In this document: positions 9,465 to 36,941 of the stretch, piece by piece | Layout: every line of letters begins with the position of its first letter | Position numbering within the stretch: position 1 is the stretch's first letter | From: a virus | Taxonomy: Duplodnaviria; Heunggongvirae; Uroviricota; Caudoviricetes | DNA length: 36,941 nucleotides | Virus record (IMG/VR): IMGVR_UViG_2563366846_000004 | Direction: 5' to 3' (one strand) | Notes under the pieces: model-generated | Told to the model about the DNA's origin: nothing | The model's input: only the letters and a program-made list of their open reading frames with translations | Database searches by the model: none | Translations under genes and position numbers: made by a program

Positions 9465-9597
9465 TTTTTGGGACTCCTGGCTGATTAAGTATGTCGATAA
9501 GGCGTTTCCATCCGTCACGTAATTTACGGGTGATTCGTTCAAGTAAAGATTCGGAAGGGCAGCCAGCAACAGGCCACCCTGCAATGGCATATTGCAT
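9433..9597 (-). CDS. cIII: Regulatory protein cIII, 54 aa
   Basis: Hand translation of the minus strand gives [54 protein letters not shown], essentially lambda cIII; below the 60-aa cutoff of the ORF track. Confidence 0.8.
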   Translation of the reverse strand: MQYAIAGWPVAGCPSESLLERITRKLRDGWKRLIDILNQPGVPKNGSNNYGYPD

Positions 9598-9669
9598 GGT
9601 GTGCTCCTTATTTATACATAACGAAAAACGCCTCGAGTGAAGCGTAATTGGTATGCGGTAACGCCGCGC

Positions 9670-10634: not shown

Positions 10635-11216
10635 ATGAACAACTCATGGTGGCAGGAACTAATGCATTTTTTCCTGCAAGGAATGACACTTAAACAGTTG
10701 ATTCATATGCTAATCATCCTGATCATATTGATTATTGTTATGCCGGTAAGCGTAAAAGAATGGATAAACCTGCATAATCCAGAAATCCTTCCTCATTACT
10801 GGATGTATTACATCCTGTTGTTTTGCGTTAGCTATGTGCTTAACGGCGTTGTTAATTCCGCTTATCACGCTGTGACTGAAAGAATTGAGGTATTCGCTGC
10901 TCAGAAGCGCAAATCTAAAGAAGAAAAATATGTGCAAGATTTGTTTGATTCGTTAACTCTTGGAGAAAGAGCGTATTTGGCATTCGCTGTAGCCGCTAAT
11001 AACCAGCTACAAACGGAAAAGGGCGCTCATGAATCAATTTCATTGCTCAAAAAAGGACTCCTCGTTCGAAGGCCTCCTGCTGTTGGATATCCTGATACCG
11101 ACCGTTTCGTTATCCCTGAAAGCTATAGACATGAGTGCTACATTAGGTTTGCCGGGAAGGCAGACAGCCTTATGGATGAACTTATCGCTCAGGATAAGCA
11201 TGGCAAAAACAAGTAA
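10635..11216 (+). CDS. sieB: Superinfection exclusion protein B, membrane protein, 193 aa
   Basis: Rightward gene embedded between ral and N as lambda sieB; hydrophobic N-terminal segments; AT-rich. Confidence 0.7.
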   Translation: MNNSWWQELMHFFLQGMTLKQLIHMLIILIILIIVMPVSVKEWINLHNPEILPHYWMYYILLFCVSYVLNGVVNSAYHAVTERIEVFAAQKRKSKEEKYVQDLFDSLTLGERAYLAFAVAANNQLQTEKGAHESISLLKKGLLVRRPPAVGYPDTDRFVIPESYRHECYIRFAGKADSLMDELIAQDKHGKNK

Positions 11217-11648: not shown

Positions 11649-11907
11649 CTGCCAGTCTGTTCCATTTGGCTTCCAGCGTCCTGCTGACGGTTAAATAGTA
11701 CGATATGTACTTTACAAGATCAATACAATTTGTTGTAAGTTGGCGTGGTTTTTTATAACGCTTTGTATTTAATAGTGTTGTTTTTTAGCGTGGATGTATT
11801 GCCTCGGCGATGTAAGGAGAGATCAGAATTGCGTGGTTTAGTGGGTTGCATCTATTTATTTTTCAATAAATATAATTGGTTATGTGTTTTTAGGTGGGCG
11901 AACGTGA

Positions 11908-11936
11908 GGCAAAGAAAACCCGGCGCTGAGGCCGGG
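11908..11936 (-). terminator. Rho-independent terminator ending the cI-proximal operon (analogous to lambda tImm)
   Basis: Perfect stem CCCGGC/GCCGGG (11919-11924 and 11931-11936), 6-nt loop, followed on the minus strand by GTTTTCTTT. Confidence 0.55.
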
Positions 11937-11941
11937 TTGTA

Positions 11942-12694
11942 TTATGCTGCAAGTCTCTTAACCCAAGTCTCTCTTTTGGAGAATGGTAGAACTTGGCTTG
12001 ATTCATGGAAGAGTAAGGAGAGTTGTTGCATTTGATCACCAATTGCTTCGCTGTCTATAACAACAAATCTGTTGTTATACTCCTCACTTGAAGCTTTAAG
12101 ATCAATTAGTTTCCCAAGCAATGAGTAAGCACTATTCCAGCTTCCTCCGTGTTTCACGCTTGATGTAAAAACGTATTTAGGTATGTCGGTTTTTATTGTT
12201 ACAGGGACGGTAATTTGATGTCCACTCAAGCCATATACGTTTTCACGAAGAGAAAGTGCGTCTCTAAGCTCTGTGTGATATAGATAATCAATAACCATAC
12301 TTTCAAACTTTTCAGCTTGAACTGGCTGATACCAGTCTAACGACAAAGTTGATGCGAGTATACCAGCTCTAATTATGTTCGATGTAATCGCACCGACATC
12401 CTTTTCTGTTGCCCAAGCAATGATTTCTCCTCGAGCATTGAGTTCTGCGCCTTCTTTAAGCAGTAATTGTCGTATCTCATCAAGTCGTTTTTTGGTAAGC
12501 GAGATCCCTCTTGCCTCCATATTCATTAAGGCATCGCATCTGTCACTAACTAAATACCTACCATTGACTTCACGGATAAAGGCACCGACATGCTCTCCAT
12601 CATCACAGTAAGTGAATGGACTGATAATTCTCAAGGTCTTGCCTATTGGATGGCATTCGAAACCTAGTTGTGAGATCACTGTTGAGCACATCAT
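11942..12694 (-). CDS. Uncharacterized protein, 250 aa; second gene of the cI-linked two-gene operon in the rexAB position
   Basis: ATG overlaps the stop of the upstream gene (ATGA); AT-rich; no transmembrane segment or motif that I recognise; followed by a terminator. Confidence 0.6.
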   Translation of the reverse strand: MMCSTVISQLGFECHPIGKTLRIISPFTYCDDGEHVGAFIREVNGRYLVSDRCDALMNMEARGISLTKKRLDEIRQLLLKEGAELNARGEIIAWATEKDVGAITSNIIRAGILASTLSLDWYQPVQAEKFESMVIDYLYHTELRDALSLRENVYGLSGHQITVPVTIKTDIPKYVFTSSVKHGGSWNSAYSLLGKLIDLKASSEEYNNRFVVIDSEAIGDQMQQLSLLFHESSQVLPFSKRETWVKRLAA

Positions 12695-13248
12695 ATTCCA
12701 AACCCCATTTGCCCCGACTCATCTTCAAGCGGTAAAGGTATTCTCCCAGAGTAAGTTATGTTCAGATGTTTACAGAAGTAATTCCAATACCCTACCAGGT
12801 CATCTGGGTTTATGTCATCTTCGATTGGAAACGCTATTCTATCACTATAGTATCCAGCTTCTTCATAGTATACATGGTAGTGAGCACCGTAAATGATATC
12901 TTGGTACTTCGGATGATCGACCTTGTAACTATTCGTGTGTTTGTCAAAGTGATAGGTATCTACCGCGAAAACCCTCTTGTTATGATAGAAAGCAATAATA
13001 TTTATTTTAGGGTAAGAAATCGGGTCATCAGGTTCTGAATCCTGATCTGGTTTCCATTTCAGTTCAAACTTTAGCCCTTGTATAGGTATACAATCCTCAT
13101 CCAAGGGGATGATATGGGCTTGTAGCCACATATCAGAGCGACTTGGTTTCTGTTTCCATTTAACGCCAGAAAAGTTAACTATTTTTTTACAATAAAGTAC
13201 TTTATCAACTTCTACTTGGCTTGGCTGATAATCATCTATTTTTGCCAA
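12691..13248 (-). CDS. Uncharacterized acidic protein, about 185 aa; first gene of the cI-linked operon
   Basis: Starts 39 nt downstream of the cI stop on the same strand with no intervening hairpin; start codon appears to be TTG at 13248 with a weak upstream AGGGCGG, next in-frame ATG is 39 codons downstream; no recognisable motif. Confidence 0.55.
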   Translation of the reverse strand: MAKIDDYQPSQVEVDKVLYCKKIVNFSGVKWKQKPSRSDMWLQAHIIPLDEDCIPIQGLKFELKWKPDQDSEPDDPISYPKINIIAFYHNKRVFAVDTYHFDKHTNSYKVDHPKYQDIIYGAHYHVYYEEAGYYSDRIAFPIEDDINPDDLVGYWNYFCKHLNITYSGRIPLPLEDESGQMGFGI

Positions 13249-13287
13249 TGTTTACCGCCCTGTAAATTGTAGATAAAAGTGGTTTCA

Positions 13288-13947
13288 TCACCCAAACGTC
13301 TCTTCAGGCCATTGGCTGGCGATAACTTTCCCCACAACGGAACAACTCTCATTGCATGGGATCATTGGGTATTGTGGGTTTAGTGGCTGTAGAAACACCT
13401 GACCGCTATCCCTGATCAGTTTCTTGAAGGTAAATTCATCACCACCAAGTCTGGCTATGCAGAAATCGCCGGGCTCAACAGCTTGCTCAGGGTCAACCAG
13501 AATTAACATCCCGTCAGGAAAGCTGGGTTTGGAACCTGTTGGTGCGGTCATTGAGTTACCTTCAACCTCAAGCCAGAATGCAGAGTCACTGGCTTTTTTG
13601 GTTGTGCTTACCAATCTCTCCGCATCGCCTTTGGTAAAGGTTCTGAGTTCTGGAGAGAACATCCCAGCCTGAACATGAGAAAAAACAGGGTACTCATATT
13701 GTTTTTTAACTGGGGCCGATGAGTATTCGCCAACAGGTGAAAATGTCCCGTCGTGGTTGAATGATATGTTATCAATACCAAGGTATTTAAACACCACACC
13801 AATATCACTAAGAGATGGATGACGAGATCCGCGCAACCAGTGTCCAATCCCACCCTGCGTCATACCTAGCTCTTCGGCTAACTTCTCTTGAGTTATGCCG
13901 AGCTCTTTCATTCTGGATCTAGCCAGTTCATACCATTTCATTTTCAT
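13288..13947 (-). CDS. cI: cI repressor, S24 LexA-like, with a lambda-type C-terminal domain and a divergent N-terminal HTH domain
   Basis: C-terminal roughly 100 residues match lambda cI by recollection; N-terminal HTH ([21 protein letters not shown]) differs from lambda; start at internal Met of the track ORF. Confidence 0.85.
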
Positions 13948-14058
13948 GTCCTTATTATTACGCTCTGTACTGGAACCATCCATGCACAATGTGTATTTTT
14001 ACTTGTATTCGCAAAGTACATATTGTATTTTTTTATTCGTGTTTACTATGGAGGGCAT
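13948..14058. promoter_or_regulatory. Divergent cI/cro control region (oR, pRM, pR) with dyad-symmetric candidate operators
   Basis: Dyads CACAATGTG (about 13985-13993), TACTTGTATTCGCAAAGTA (14000-14018) and GTACATATTGTA (14016-14027); a related GTACGATATGTAC lies upstream of N at 11698-11710. Confidence 0.45.
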
Positions 14059-14329: not shown

Positions 14330-14415
14330 AGTTCCAAGATATCTGACCAACTAAGGCCATATGCGTTTCCACGCATACCTTTCAACTAACTATTCACTAT
14401 TGGAAATCTTAAGAA

Positions 14416-14712
14416 ATGGAAAGAACAAGTTACAGCAAACTATCACAGCGTGACGTTGATCGCGCAGAAACAGATTTACTTATCAATCTGTCAGCTATTA
14501 CCCAGCGCGGTCTGGCAAAGATGATTGGCTGTCATGAATCGAAGATAAGCAGAACGGACTGGAGATTTATTGCTTCGGTCTTGTGTGCTTTCGGAATGGC
14601 ATCAGACATCAGTCCGATTAGCAGGGCTTTTAAGTATGCGCTTGATGGACTCACCAATAAAAAACGCCCGGCGGCAACCGAGCGTTCTGAACAAATCCAG
14701 ATGGAATTCTGA
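14416..14712 (+). CDS. cII: Transcriptional activator cII, 98 aa
   Basis: C-terminal LTNKKRPAATERSEQIQMEF matches lambda cII by recollection; N-terminal part divergent. Confidence 0.8.
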   Translation: MERTSYSKLSQRDVDRAETDLLINLSAITQRGLAKMIGCHESKISRTDWRFIASVLCAFGMASDISPISRAFKYALDGLTNKKRPAATERSEQIQMEF

Positions 14713-35023: not shown

Positions 35024-36941
35024 ACCGGTAGGCGATCTGGTCGTTGATTTAAGTCTGGATGCGGCCAGATTTGACGAGCAGATGGCCAGAGTCAGGCGTC
35101 ATTTTTCCGGTACGGAAAGTGATGCGAAAAAAACAGCGGCAGTCGTTGAACAGTCGCTGAGCCGACAGGCGCTGGCTGCACAGAAAGCGGGGATTTCCGT
35201 CGGGCAGTATAAAGCCGCCATGCGTATGCTGCCTGCACAGTTCACCGACGTGGCCACGCAGCTTGCAGGCGGGCAAAGCCCGTGGCTGATCCTGCTGCAA
35301 CAGGGTGGTCAGGTTAAGGACTCCTTCGGCGGGATGATCCCCATGTTCCGGGGGCTTGCCGGTGCGATCACCCTGCCGATGGTCGGGGCCACCTCGCTGG
35401 CGGTGGCGACCGGTGCGCTGGCGTATGCCTGGTATCAGGGTAACTCAACCCTGTCCGATTTCAACAAAACGCTGGTCCTTTCCGGCAATCAGTCGGGTCT
35501 GACGGCAGATCGTATGCTGGTCCTGTCCAGAGCCGGGCAGGCGGCAGGGCTGACGTTTAACCAGACCAGCGAGTCACTCAGCGCACTGGTTAAGGCGGGA
35601 GTAAGCGGTGAGGCTCAGATTGCATCCATCAGCCAGAGTGTGGCGCGTTTCTCCTCTGCATCCGGCGTGGAGGTGGACAAGGTCGCTGAAGCCTTCGGGA
35701 AGCTGACCACTGACCCGACGTCGGGGCTGACGGCGATGGCGCGCCAGTTCCATAACGTAACGGCGGAGCAGATTGCGTATGTTGCTCAGTTGCAGCGTTC
35801 CGGCGATGAATCCGGGGCATTGCAGGCGGCGAACGAGGCCGCAACGAAAGGGTTTGATGACCAGACCCGACGCCTGAAAGAGAACATGGGCACGCTGGAA
35901 ACCTGGGCAGACAGGACAGCACGGGCATTCAAATCCATGTGGGATGCGGTGCTGGATATTGGTCGTCCTGATACCGCTCAGGAGATGCTGATTAAGGCAG
36001 AGGCTGCGTTTAAGAAAGCGGACGACATCTGGAATCTGCGCAAGGATGATTATTTTGTTAACGATGAAGCGCGGGCGCGTTACTGGGATGATCGTGAAAA
36101 GGCCCGTCTTGCGCTTGAAGCCGCCCGAAAGAAGGCTGAACAGCAGAGTCAACAGGACAAAAATGCGCAGCAGCAGAGCGATACCGAAGCATCACGGCTG
36201 AAATATACCGAAGAGGCGCAGAAGGCTTACGAACGGCTGCAGACACCGCTGGAGAAATATACCGCCCGTCAGGAAGAACTGAACAAGGCACTGAAAGACG
36301 GGAAAATCCTGCAGGCAGATTACAACACGCTGATGGCGGCGGCGAAAAAGGATTATGAAGCGACGCTGAAAAAGCCGAAACAGTCCGGCGTGAAGGTGTC
36401 TGCGGGCGATCGTCAGGAAGACAGTGCTCATGCTGCCCTGCTGACGCTTCAGGCTGAACTCCGGACGCTGGAGAAGCATGCCGGAGCAAATGAGAAAATC
36501 AGCCAGCAGCGCCGGGATTTGTGGAAGGCGGAGAGTCAGTTCGCGGTACTGGAGGAGGCGGCGCAACGTCGCCAGCTGTCTGCACAGGAGAAATCCCTGC
36601 TGGCGCATAAAGATGAGACGCTGGAGTACAAACGCCAGCTGGCTGCACTTGGCGACAAGGTTACGTATCAGGAGCGCCTGAACGCGCTGGCGCAGCAGGC
36701 GGATAAATTCGCACAGCAGCAACGGGCAAAACGGGCCGCTATTGATGCGAAAAGCCGGGGGCTGACTGACCGGCAGGCAGAACGGGAAGCCACGGAACAG
36801 CGCCTGAAGGAACAGTATGGCGATAATCCTCTGGCGCTGAATAACGTCATGTCAGAGCAGAAAAAGACCTGGGCGGCTGAAGACCTGCTTCGCGGGAACT
36901 GGATGGCAGGCCTGAAGTCCGGCTGGAGTGAGTGGGAAGAG
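35016..36941 (+). CDS. H: Tail tape measure protein H, 5' part only (runs off the window end)
   Basis: Frame open from ATG 35016 to the window end, so absent from the ORF track; lambda gpH-like N-terminus by recollection; overlaps the T stop. Confidence 0.85.
   Translation, partial: MAEPVGDLVVDLSLDAARFDEQMARVRRHFSGTESDAKKTAAVVEQSLSRQALAAQKAGISVGQYKAAMRMLPAQFTDVATQLAGGQSPWLILLQQGGQVKDSFGGMIPMFRGLAGAITLPMVGATSLAVATGALAYAWYQGNSTLSDFNKTLVLSGNQSGLTADRMLVLSRAGQAAGLTFNQTSESLSALVKAGVSGEAQIASISQSVARFSSASGVEVDKVAEAFGKLTTDPTSGLTAMARQFHNVTAEQIAYVAQLQRSGDESGALQAANEAATKGFDDQTRRLKENMGTLETWADRTARAFKSMWDAVLDIGRPDTAQEMLIKAEAAFKKADDIWNLRKDDYFVNDEARARYWDDREKARLALEAARKKAEQQSQQDKNAQQQSDTEASRLKYTEEAQKAYERLQTPLEKYTARQEELNKALKDGKILQADYNTLMAAAKKDYEATLKKPKQSGVKVSAGDRQEDSAHAALLTLQAELRTLEKHAGANEKISQQRRDLWKAESQFAVLEEAAQRRQLSAQEKSLLAHKDETLEYKRQLAALGDKVTYQERLNALAQQADKFAQQQRAKRAAIDAKSRGLTDRQAEREATEQRLKEQYGDNPLALNNVMSEQKKTWAAEDLLRGNWMAGLKSGWSEWEE

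What the first reader, a model, noticed from the sequence alone, without database searches (positions are those of the whole stretch)
11908..13287. Uncharacterized two-gene operon downstream of cI in the rexAB position: candidate lysogen-expressed exclusion or defence module
Directly after cI, on the same strand and with no terminator between, lie two ORFs (about 185 aa at 12691..13248 and 250 aa at 11942..12694) joined by an ATGA stop/start overlap and closed by a Rho-independent terminator (11908-11936) just before pL/nutL/N. This is where lambda carries rexA-rexB, but neither protein resembles RexA or RexB, or any family I recognise; both look soluble, with no obvious catalytic motif. The module is markedly AT-rich against the surrounding phage core (a 60-nt sample at 12001-12060 is 38% GC), suggesting a horizontally acquired moron. 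Its placement implies expression from pRM in the lysogen, the usual context for abortive-infection and superinfection-exclusion systems.
Basis: partly seen in the sequence, partly recalled or inferred. Interest (0 to 1): 0.85.

Follow-up and report, generated by a model that had tools for sequence, protein, structure and literature searches.

The report
Repressor-linked two-gene candidate phage-defence cassette
Where phage lambda carries rexA-rexB, right behind the prophage repressor gene, this lambda-like E. coli phage carries a different, conserved pair of soluble proteins that is very probably a lysogen-expressed anti-phage module, though no study I could read has tested it.

Summary
Two overlapping genes, A (185 aa, 12691-13248, TTG start) and B (250 aa, 11942-12694), follow cI on the minus strand. 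No terminator lies between cI and A. The pair ends at a terminator that matches lambda's own terminator after rexB.

The proteins are not family-less.
- B is DUF1828 (a fold like YbjN and type III secretion chaperones) plus DUF1829 (restriction-endonuclease fold, but without the canonical catalytic residues).
- A has no relative among solved structures and is weakly DUF6978-like. It has an invariant Lys/Arg/Asp/Asn/His cluster and a conserved C-terminal tail resembling a beta-clamp-binding motif.

Both proteins weakly match PADLOC's unvalidated candidate PDC-M24, and DefensePredictor lists both as predicted novel defence genes. Neither appears in that paper's table of tested operons.

In all 28 independent contexts (Enterobacterales, Aeromonas, a Pseudomonas phage, metagenomes), A sits directly upstream of B. 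Wherever upstream sequence exists, a repressor with a LexA-type self-cleavage (S24) domain precedes the pair, whatever the immunity type. A sister phage with the same cI carries a different cassette between the same two breakpoints.

The exact pair occurs in 241 of 5,426 complete E. coli genomes, including CFT073 and Nissle 1917.

Verdict: a real, mobile, repressor-linked candidate defence cassette. Its function is unproven and its mechanism is inferred.

The parts
13288..13989 (-). cI-type repressor (HTH_3 plus Peptidase_S24), the first gene of the presumed pRM transcript. PhiR57_1 annotates its start at 13983.
   Evidence: Pfam Peptidase_S24 E 1.3e-28 and HTH_3 E 2.1e-10. Annotated as cI in the 99.8% identical phage PhiR57_1.
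13249..13287 (-). 39-nt spacer between cI and A. It contains no terminator and has a weak Shine-Dalgarno-like GGGCGG ahead of the TTG start. The cassette's right-hand recombination joint lies 2-3 nt after the cI stop.
   Evidence: Terminator scan, sequence, and alignment with PhiR11_1, where homology stops just after the cI stop codon.
12691..13248 (-). Gene A, 185 aa. Soluble, acidic (pI 5.3), beta-rich, with no relative among solved structures. Weakly DUF6978-like and PDC-M24A-like; member of phrog_2017. This is the proposed effector.
12862..12960 (-). Codons for A residues 97-129. They hold the family-invariant D97, N106, H123 and H125, the near-invariant H104 and G121, and a nearby acidic residue (E129). 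K22 and R92 are also invariant. This is the presumed active or metal-binding site.
   Evidence: Alignment A4 of 22 sequences at 21-69% identity.
12694..12714 (-). Codons for A's extreme C-terminal tail, G179-Q-M-G-F-G-I185. The tail is conserved, has low pLDDT, and follows the pattern Q-x-x-[LFW]-(x)-[LIMV] at the C-terminus.
   Evidence: 20 of 22 diverse homologues end in GQ[IML]G[LF]xL, GQIPLL, GQGRLL or QMSLEL. pLDDT is below 50 for residues 182-185. Compare Pol IV QLVLGL, Pol II QLGLF and the consensus QL[S/D]LF (PMC3716654).
12691..12694 (-). ATGA stop/start overlap, indicating translational coupling of A and B.
   Evidence: Sequence. The ATGA overlap is seen at the sequence level in the window and in 9 of the 10 related loci whose junction was read. 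By gene coordinates, A's end and B's start overlap or abut in almost every other locus; L028 has a 59-nt gap.
11942..12694 (-). Gene B, 250 aa. The N-terminal DUF1828 domain (about residues 1-120) has a fold like YbjN and type III secretion chaperones. The C-terminal DUF1829 domain (about residues 128-250) has the restriction-endonuclease (PD-(D/E)xK) fold but lacks the canonical catalytic residues. Member of phrog_1960; matches PDC-M24B over its full length. This is the proposed sensor or regulator.
11945..11953 (-). Codons for B's C-terminal L248-A-A250. The pattern [LI]-[AVC]-[AST] at the C-terminus is conserved and resembles the last residues of the ssrA tag.
   Evidence: All 28 close homologues and 8 of 9 distant ones end this way: LAA, LVA, LCA, IAA or IAS.
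11907..11938 (-). Rho-independent terminator that closes the operon. It is homologous to lambda's terminator after rexB and marks the cassette's left-hand joint.
   Evidence: Stem of 8 pairs (6 G-C) followed by a T-run. The 39 nt are 97-100% identical to lambda and many lambdoid phages. Window 11817-11938 matches lambda 35708-35826 at 90%.

Best explanation
A and B form a mobile, lysogen-expressed anti-phage (superinfection-exclusion or abortive-infection type) cassette. It occupies the cI-N hotspot of lambdoid prophages and is read through from the repressor's promoter.

Proposed division of labour (inferred):
- A is the effector. It has a fold not seen in solved structures, with an invariant K/R/D/N/H-x-H cluster that looks like an active or metal-binding site.
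- A's conserved, disordered C-terminal tail resembles the Pol IV and Pol II type of beta-sliding-clamp-binding motif. This would take A to replicating DNA.
- B is A's co-translated partner. It combines a chaperone-like, peptide-binding fold with a catalytically degenerate nuclease-fold domain. It would hold A inactive, possibly by sequestering the tail.
- B would be lost either through a phage cue or through turnover, since it carries a conserved ssrA-like C-terminal LAA that could be a ClpX degron. Freed A would then block replication of the invading phage, and possibly of the host.

Shown here: the anatomy, the folds, the conservation and the repressor linkage.
Inferred: the defence role (about 0.65), the A-effector/B-regulator split (about 0.3), clamp binding (about 0.35), and the ClpX degron (about 0.3).
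For: Position and cassette behaviour:
- The pair sits in the same operon slot as rexAB, with breakpoints exactly at the cI stop and the lambda-type terminator.
- Phage PhiR11_1 has the same cI and a different two-gene cassette in the slot.
- The cI-N region is a known hotspot that carries RexAB and BstA (PMC8585504).

Linkage:
- A lies directly upstream of B in every one of 28 loci. An S24 repressor lies upstream in every locus that has flank, behind different Cro, cII and replication modules.

Independent computational flags:
- Ordered PDC-M24A and PDC-M24B matches. PDC-M24 is a guilt-by-embedding candidate.
- DefensePredictor log-odds of 5.64 for B and 4.90 for A, against a cutoff of 4.

Protein features:
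- A's invariant residues, its lack of structural relatives, and its conserved tail.
- A has non-ATG starts in 9 of 11 lineages, suggesting restrained translation, and is coupled to B by ATGA.
- A diverges faster than B: 67 vs 78%, 37 vs 54%, 24 vs 29.5% identity.
- B's two folds and its loss of D...(D/E)xK: H159 sits at the 'D' position and K173 is not conserved.
- B's conserved C-terminal LAA-type ending.

Maintenance:
- The pair is intact in CFT073 although cI there is a pseudogene.
- The pair is present at >=99% identity in 241 of 5,426 complete E. coli genomes.
Against: - No experiment on this pair was found. It is absent from DefensePredictor's table of tested operons. The most relevant paper, Brenes & Laub 2025, could not be read.
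- The PADLOC match for A is weak and partial: E 4.8e-4, covering residues 104-163 only.
- PDC-M24 itself is unvalidated and was found embedded in other defence systems, not in prophages.
- Clamp binding and the ClpX degron rest on short motifs only. P0082 lacks the Q of the tail, P0076 ends without the tail, and some tails read QG-RLL.
- B's last residues lie in a confidently predicted helix, which may limit their access to ClpX.
- No enzymatic family could be assigned to A.
- Co-transcription with cI is inferred from the absence of a terminator. It was not measured.
Confidence: 0.4

Rival explanations
1. The pair is a defence cassette with the roles reversed. B is the nuclease effector, with a restriction-endonuclease-fold domain controlled by its chaperone-like sensor domain. 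A is the fast-evolving sensor or adaptor that recognises a phage component.
Against: There is no conserved acidic residue at the D or (D/E)xK positions. H159 occupies the 'D' position, P164 is invariant in beta-2, and K173 is T in the Pseudomonas homologue. Only G155, S157, G158, P164, W186 and D198 are invariant in this domain. A carries the more enzyme-like invariant cluster.
Confidence: 0.15
2. The pair is a toxin-antitoxin-like addiction module. Its main role is to stabilise the prophage or its immunity region in the host, and any anti-phage effect is incidental.
For: Two small, translationally coupled genes. The second protein has a possible degradation tag. The first gene has a restrained start codon. 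The pair is retained intact in CFT073 next to a decayed cI.
Against: Neither protein matches any toxin or antitoxin family in Pfam or NCBIfam. The strict linkage to the repressor operon is the pattern of known prophage abortive-infection genes. Many toxin-antitoxin systems are themselves defence systems, so this rival overlaps with the main reading.
Confidence: 0.1
3. The pair is an accessory of the lysis-lysogeny switch. The proteins would modulate repressor function, induction or early replication of their own phage. Lambda RexA has been reported to do something like this (from my own knowledge). On this reading the pair does not act against other phages.
For: The pair is invariably co-located and presumably co-expressed with the repressor. 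A clamp-binding tail could serve the phage's own replication control.
Against: The same pair sits behind repressors that share no detectable similarity, with unrelated Cro and cII partners. This argues against a specific interaction with the immunity proteins. A sister phage with the same cI has a different cassette in the slot instead of this pair. Two defence predictors flag the pair.
Confidence: 0.1

Closest known systems
Lambda RexA-RexB
   Same: Identical genomic slot: directly after cI, same strand, closed by the homologous terminator, upstream of pL and N. Both are two-gene cassettes presumably transcribed with the repressor in the lysogen.
   Different: No sequence similarity (E >= 1). 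There is no membrane protein, whereas RexB has strongly hydrophobic segments (maximum hydropathy 2.39) that A and B lack. The lengths and folds differ. A RexB-like ion-channel mechanism is therefore excluded.
PADLOC candidate PDC-M24 (Payne et al. 2024, 'guilt-by-embedding'; unvalidated)
   Same: The same two-gene order, with gene 1 hitting PDC-M24A and gene 2 hitting PDC-M24B. B aligns over the whole model (residues 2-249 to model positions 4-254 of 256; E 4.7e-10). Distant members of the A and B families give the same hits.
   Different: A's match is weak and covers only its C-terminal third (E 4.8e-4). PDC-M24 was defined from cassettes embedded in other defence systems, whereas this branch is found only behind prophage repressors. 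This looks like a divergent prophage-borne sister branch. I expect it would fail PADLOC's own cut-offs, but I did not run PADLOC itself.
BstA (prophage BTP1; Owen et al. 2021)
   Same: A family of prophage proteins whose defining genomic feature is its position downstream of, and presumably co-transcribed with, the prophage repressor across diverse Gram-negative bacteria. BstA acts at sites of phage DNA replication (PMC8585504).
   Different: BstA is a single protein. No PADLOC model other than PDC-M24 was hit at E <= 1. No aba-like self-immunity element was looked for or found here.
DUF1828/DUF1829 proteins (DUF1829 also occurs in DS-6B of the validated HipAD/DS-6 system)
   Same: B has DUF1828 (33.5 bits against a cutoff of 22) and a DUF1829-type restriction-endonuclease-fold domain. 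DUF1829 was recently implicated in defence through DS-6B.
   Different: DS-6B pairs DUF1829 with DUF3037 and partners a HipA-like kinase, which is a different architecture and partner. In B the canonical nuclease residues are absent.
SocAB toxin-antitoxin system of Caulobacter (from my own knowledge)
   Same: A functional analogy for the proposed mechanism: a toxin that blocks replication by binding the beta sliding clamp, controlled through ClpXP-dependent proteolysis.
   Different: There is no sequence or fold relationship. In SocAB the toxin is the ClpXP substrate, whereas here the putative tag is on B. Nothing about this analogy was tested.

Membership tests
Lambda RexAB | Located after cI in the same operon, ending at the terminator before pL and N | tested here: met
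Lambda RexAB | Homology of gene 1 to RexA and gene 2 to RexB | tested here: not met
   BLASTP best E values are 16 (A vs RexA) and 1.0 (B vs RexB). No Rex hit in Pfam or PADLOC.
Lambda RexAB | The second protein is a small multi-pass membrane protein | tested here: not met
   Maximum 19-residue hydropathy is 1.19 for B and 0.45 for A, against 2.39 for RexB.
PADLOC PDC-M24 (candidate system) | Gene 2 matches the PDC-M24B profile over its full length | tested here: met
   E 4.7e-10, residues 2-249 to model positions 4-254 of 256. The Aeromonas and Pseudomonas homologues also hit.
PADLOC PDC-M24 (candidate system) | Gene 1 matches the PDC-M24A profile | tested here: inconclusive
   E 4.8e-4, residues 104-163 only. 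Distant A homologues hit another PDC-M24A model at E 2e-4 to 3e-3.
PADLOC PDC-M24 (candidate system) | Adjacent genes in the order A then B | tested here: met
PADLOC PDC-M24 (candidate system) | Found embedded in known defence systems (the basis of the candidate call) | tested here: not met
   Every context seen is a prophage immunity region.
PADLOC PDC-M24 (candidate system) | Anti-phage activity | not testable with these tools
   The candidate is listed as unvalidated.
Pfam DUF1828 | Score above the gathering cutoff | tested here: met
   33.5 bits against a cutoff of 22, residues 26-110. The fold resembles YbjN and type III secretion chaperones.
Pfam DUF1829 / PD-(D/E)xK clan | Restriction-endonuclease-like alpha-beta-beta-beta-alpha-beta fold | tested here: met
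Pfam DUF1829 / PD-(D/E)xK clan | Conserved catalytic D ... (D/E)xK residues | tested here: not met
   H159 sits at the 'D' position, there is no conserved acidic residue before K173, and K173 is not conserved. This was judged from secondary structure and alignment, not from a 3D superposition.
Pfam DUF6978 | Score above the gathering cutoff | tested here: inconclusive
   A scores 22.0 bits against a cutoff of 29.6. Four distant A homologues also give sub-threshold hits.
BstA | Homology to BstA | tested here: not met
   No PADLOC model other than PDC-M24 was hit at E <= 1.
Beta-clamp-binding proteins | Exposed motif of the type QL[S/D]LF or QLxLxL, usually C-terminal | tested here: met
   The tail is QMGFGI in the window and QIGLGL in most homologues. 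It is conserved in 20 of 22 and has low pLDDT. The motif definition comes from PMC3716654.
Beta-clamp-binding proteins | Physical binding to DnaN | not testable with these tools
ClpX substrates with an ssrA-like C-terminus | C-terminal L-A-A or L-V-A | tested here: met
   RLAA in the window. [LI]-[AVC]-[AST] in 36 of 37 homologues. Whether the protein is actually degraded cannot be tested here.

The most novel reading that the evidence does not exclude
The pair is a new kind of abortive-infection system, hard-wired to prophage repressors across Gammaproteobacteria. A would be an effector with a previously unseen fold that uses a Pol IV-like C-terminal peptide to dock on the beta sliding clamp at replication forks. 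B would be a ClpXP-labile partner, with a chaperone-like domain and a dead nuclease-fold domain, that keeps A off the clamp until infection. On this reading the system uses the host's own replication clamp to find and stop replicating phage DNA.
Probability: 0.15. Interest if true: 0.8.

Novelty: new variant of a known kind. Interest (0 to 1): 0.6.

Why it matters
- If the pair is a defence system, it is a common and unstudied one. It is present in about 4% of complete E. coli genomes, including the model uropathogen CFT073 and the probiotic Nissle 1917, and in inducible ECOR and infant-gut phages. It would therefore affect phage-therapy host range and competition between prophages.
- Like BstA, the family is defined by strict linkage to the prophage repressor. 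This strengthens the view that the cI-N slot is a dedicated "immunity plus defence" locus, and it provides clean cassette boundaries for mining that slot.
- Protein A has no structural relatives but shows clear active-site-like conservation, so a new effector chemistry is possible.
- The putative clamp-binding tail and the ssrA-like tag give cheap, specific experiments to test the proposed mechanism.

Tried and rejected
- **RexA/RexB homology and membrane segments:** none found.
- **NCBIfam:** nothing meaningful.
- **PDB sequence profiles for A and B:** nothing.
- **Viral structure library (BFVD) for A:** one uncharacterised Siphoviridae protein.
- **AlphaFold database library (afdb50):** not available.
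- **Plasmids:** no B homologue.
- **Genome-contig pattern scan:** returned only close relatives.
- **Exhaustive profile search with A:** only 20 clusters among 1.84 billion proteins, so the family is small and does not merge with a named family.
- **Motif readings of A's HxH(x3)E, considered from memory:**
  - JAMM: rejected, because the downstream Ser and Asp are not conserved.
  - HNH or His-Me finger: rejected, because the H-x-N spacing is atypical and there is no beta-beta-alpha match.
- **Internal promoters analogous to lambda pLIT:** the hits are no more frequent than chance.
- **Literature:** no full-text hits for PDC-M24, PhiR57 or DUF1828 plus phage, and none for DUF6978 relevant to phage. 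Brenes & Laub 2025, which probably describes the PhiR phages, is not held.
- **The 'pr' gene of Nissle 1917 in Bury et al. 2018:** this is not the pair and not cI. The paper's primers map to the cII-like ORF.
Full report
**1. The observation**

The window is 99.8% identical to the inducible ECOR phage PhiR57_1 over its first 25 kb. On the minus strand it reads as follows.
- cI lies at 13288-13989 and has HTH_3 and Peptidase_S24 domains.
- A 39-nt spacer follows.
- ORF A lies at 12691-13248 (185 aa, TTG start).
- ORF B lies at 11942-12694 (250 aa). Its ATG overlaps A's TGA as ATGA.
- A hairpin with a T-run lies at 11938-11907. It is the only terminator-like site on this strand between cI and N.

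The terminator and the 120 nt below it match lambda 35708-35826 at 90%. That stretch ends at the rexB stop codon.

Three details need correcting.
- A's TTG start is real, because the N-terminal MAK is invariant in homologues.
- The AT-richness is modest against its neighbours: 39.6% GC for the pair, 42-46% for cI and the N-sieB stretch, and 49.4% for the window.
- Both proteins do belong to recognisable families (section 2).

**2. What the proteins are**

Protein B:
- It scores above threshold for Pfam DUF1828.
- It aligns end to end with PADLOC's PDC-M24B model at E 4.7e-10.
- It belongs to phrog_1960.
- An AlphaFold model (pLDDT 82) has two domains.
- HHpred results published with DefensePredictor call residues 155-241 DUF1829, in the PDDEXK clan, at 98.8%.
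- The canonical catalytic residues are missing. H159 sits where the Asp should be. No conserved acidic residue precedes K173, and K173 itself is not conserved.
- Across nine lineages the only invariant residues in this domain are G155, S157, G158, P164, W186 and D198.

Protein A:
- It gives only sub-threshold hits to DUF6978 (22 bits against a cutoff of 29.6) and to PDC-M24A (E 4.8e-4, residues 104-163).
- It belongs to phrog_2017.
- Its model is confident (pLDDT 86, pTM 0.83).
- An exhaustive profile search of 1.84 billion representative proteins found only 20 clusters.
- Across homologues at 21-69% identity, K22, W31, R92, D97, N106, H123, H125, F158 and P173 are invariant. H104, G121, W155 and Q180 are nearly so. 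This looks like an active or metal-binding site.

Neither protein resembles RexA or RexB, and neither has a membrane-like segment.

**3. Context elsewhere**

The exact pair is in 241 of 5,426 complete E. coli genomes, always chromosomal. These include CFT073, Nissle 1917, NU14 and the type strain. It is also in seven phage records: ev017 and ev207 (two records each), PhiR57_1, PhiR63_2 and an Stx1a phage.

I examined 28 loci.
- Enterobacteriaceae with at least four different immunity and replication modules.
- Aeromonas.
- Izhakiella, Yersinia, Providencia, Xenorhabdus, Pantoea and Thorsellia.
- Pseudomonas phage phPA-G, where A is an unannotated ORF.
- Metagenomic contigs that encode the most distant A homologues, at 22-25% identity.

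In every one, A lies immediately upstream of B, almost always with a 4-nt overlap. Wherever upstream sequence exists, the preceding gene is an S24 repressor on the same strand. In a few loci one small gene intervenes.

The repressors range from 87% identity with the window's cI to no detectable similarity. The pair therefore moves independently of immunity specificity but always lands in the same slot.

PhiR11_1 shows the cassette boundaries directly. Its cI is about 99% identical up to the stop codon, and homology ends 2-3 nt later. A different pair of genes (283 and 163 aa) fills the slot, and homology resumes at the terminator.

A diverges faster than B throughout. A uses TTG or GTG starts in 9 of 11 lineages.

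**4. What is already known**

- PDC-M24 is one of 145 "phage defence candidates" that Payne et al. (2024) derived from genes embedded within known defence systems. It is unvalidated.
- DefensePredictor (Science 2026) lists WP_000968518.1 (B, log-odds 5.64) and WP_001062368.1 (A, 4.90) as "predicted novel defense gene" in an E. coli genome of its 69-strain, mainly ECOR, set. Neither accession appears in its table of tested operons.
- Owen et al. (2021) describe the cI-N region as a mosaic hotspot that carries rexAB in lambda and bstA in BTP1. They stress BstA's conserved position behind the repressor.
- Full-text searches found nothing on this pair.
- Brenes & Laub 2025 probably describes the PhiR phages. 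It could not be read.

**5. Mechanism**

Shown here:
- a repressor-linked, translationally coupled pair of soluble proteins;
- one protein with an enzyme-like invariant cluster and a fold absent from solved structures;
- the other with a chaperone-like domain and a nuclease-fold domain that lacks the canonical catalytic residues.

Two short, conserved terminal motifs suggest how they might work.

First, A's disordered tail ends in patterns such as G-Q-[I/M/L]-G-[L/F]-x-[L/I] in 20 of 22 diverse homologues. The sequence is QMGFGI in the window and QIGLGL in most homologues. This closely resembles the C-terminal beta-clamp-binding peptides of Pol IV (QLVLGL) and Pol II (QLGLF), and the consensus QL[S/D]LF (PMC3716654).

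Second, B ends in [L/I]-[A/V/C]-[A/S/T] in 36 of 37 homologues. In the window it ends in RLAA. These are the same last residues as the ssrA tag that ClpX recognises; that comparison is from my own knowledge.

My preferred model runs as follows.
- A is an effector that can dock on the sliding clamp at replicating DNA.
- B is made in step with A and holds it in check, plausibly by binding the tail in its chaperone-like groove.
- A phage cue, or loss of the labile B, frees A to halt replication.

This would be an abortive-infection or exclusion outcome. It is functionally reminiscent of BstA, which acts at phage replication sites, and of the clamp-binding toxin SocB.

My estimates are about 0.65 for a defence role, about 0.3 for this division of labour, and about 0.35 and 0.3 for the two motif readings.

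The rivals are:
- B is the nuclease and A the sensor;
- a toxin-antitoxin-like stabilisation module;
- an accessory of the phage's own lysis-lysogeny switch.

**6. Verdict**

It is not a member of the RexAB family. It is best described as a divergent, prophage-specialised branch of the untested PDC-M24 candidate family, sitting in the known cI-N defence hotspot. It has already been flagged computationally, but to my knowledge it has not been characterised experimentally.

Noticed in passing
L024 3538-4918 (phage PhiR11_1, PV340547.1): A sister phage with about 99% identical cI and the same flanks carries a different, unannotated two-gene cassette (283 aa and 163 aa) in the same slot. It has no PADLOC hit. 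The smaller protein gives only a faint hit to DUF4064 (E 0.019), which I believe is a membrane-protein family. This may be another uncharacterised cassette with a RexAB-like layout.
   Followed up: partly
window 14370-14388 and 14613-14671 (ORF 14416-14712): The 'phage repressor (pr)' of E. coli Nissle 1917 prophage 3 was reported to reduce lambda and Stx-phage plating about 200-fold (Bury et al. 2018, PMC5987069). The paper's primers map to the cII-like ORF of this window, not to cI. PR_P1_rev was not found exactly.
   Followed up: partly
L013 5347-6048 (E. coli CFT073, NC_004431.1 1412427-1413128): In CFT073 the cI gene upstream of the pair is annotated as a broken pseudogene (a LexA-family fragment plus a separate HTH fragment), while A and B are intact and 100% identical at the DNA level to the window.
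   Followed up: no
L014 5044-5385; L016 5053-5394: In Izhakiella and Providencia prophages a 113-aa DUF3024 protein (E 3e-27 for the Izhakiella copy) is inserted between the repressor and A. The Providencia ORF looks similar by sequence and was not scanned against Pfam.
   Followed up: no
L022 3680-4330 and 4489-5004 (Pseudomonas phage VB_PaD_phPA-G, PP083311.1): The A homologue is an unannotated ORF in this record. Between CI and A lies a 216-aa protein with a weak hit to another PADLOC candidate, PDC-S48 (E 3e-6). A diversity-generating retroelement (Avd plus reverse transcriptase) lies about 3 kb downstream.
   Followed up: partly
window 9552-9610 (-): The lambda cIII thermoregulator RNA element (Rfam RF01804, 88.5 bits) is the only Rfam match in the window.
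   Followed up: no
window 10635-11216 (+): A sieB-type superinfection-exclusion gene (annotated SieB in PhiR57_1 and CFT073) lies about 0.7 kb beyond the terminator. The immunity-left region therefore carries at least two candidate exclusion functions.
   Followed up: no
L021 (NZ_JBHSON010000334.1, 518 bp): A 518-bp contig labelled Actinomadura rugatobispora encodes the A/B junction at 64% (A) and 82% (B) amino-acid identity to the window's proteins. This is almost certainly contamination of that assembly.
   Followed up: no
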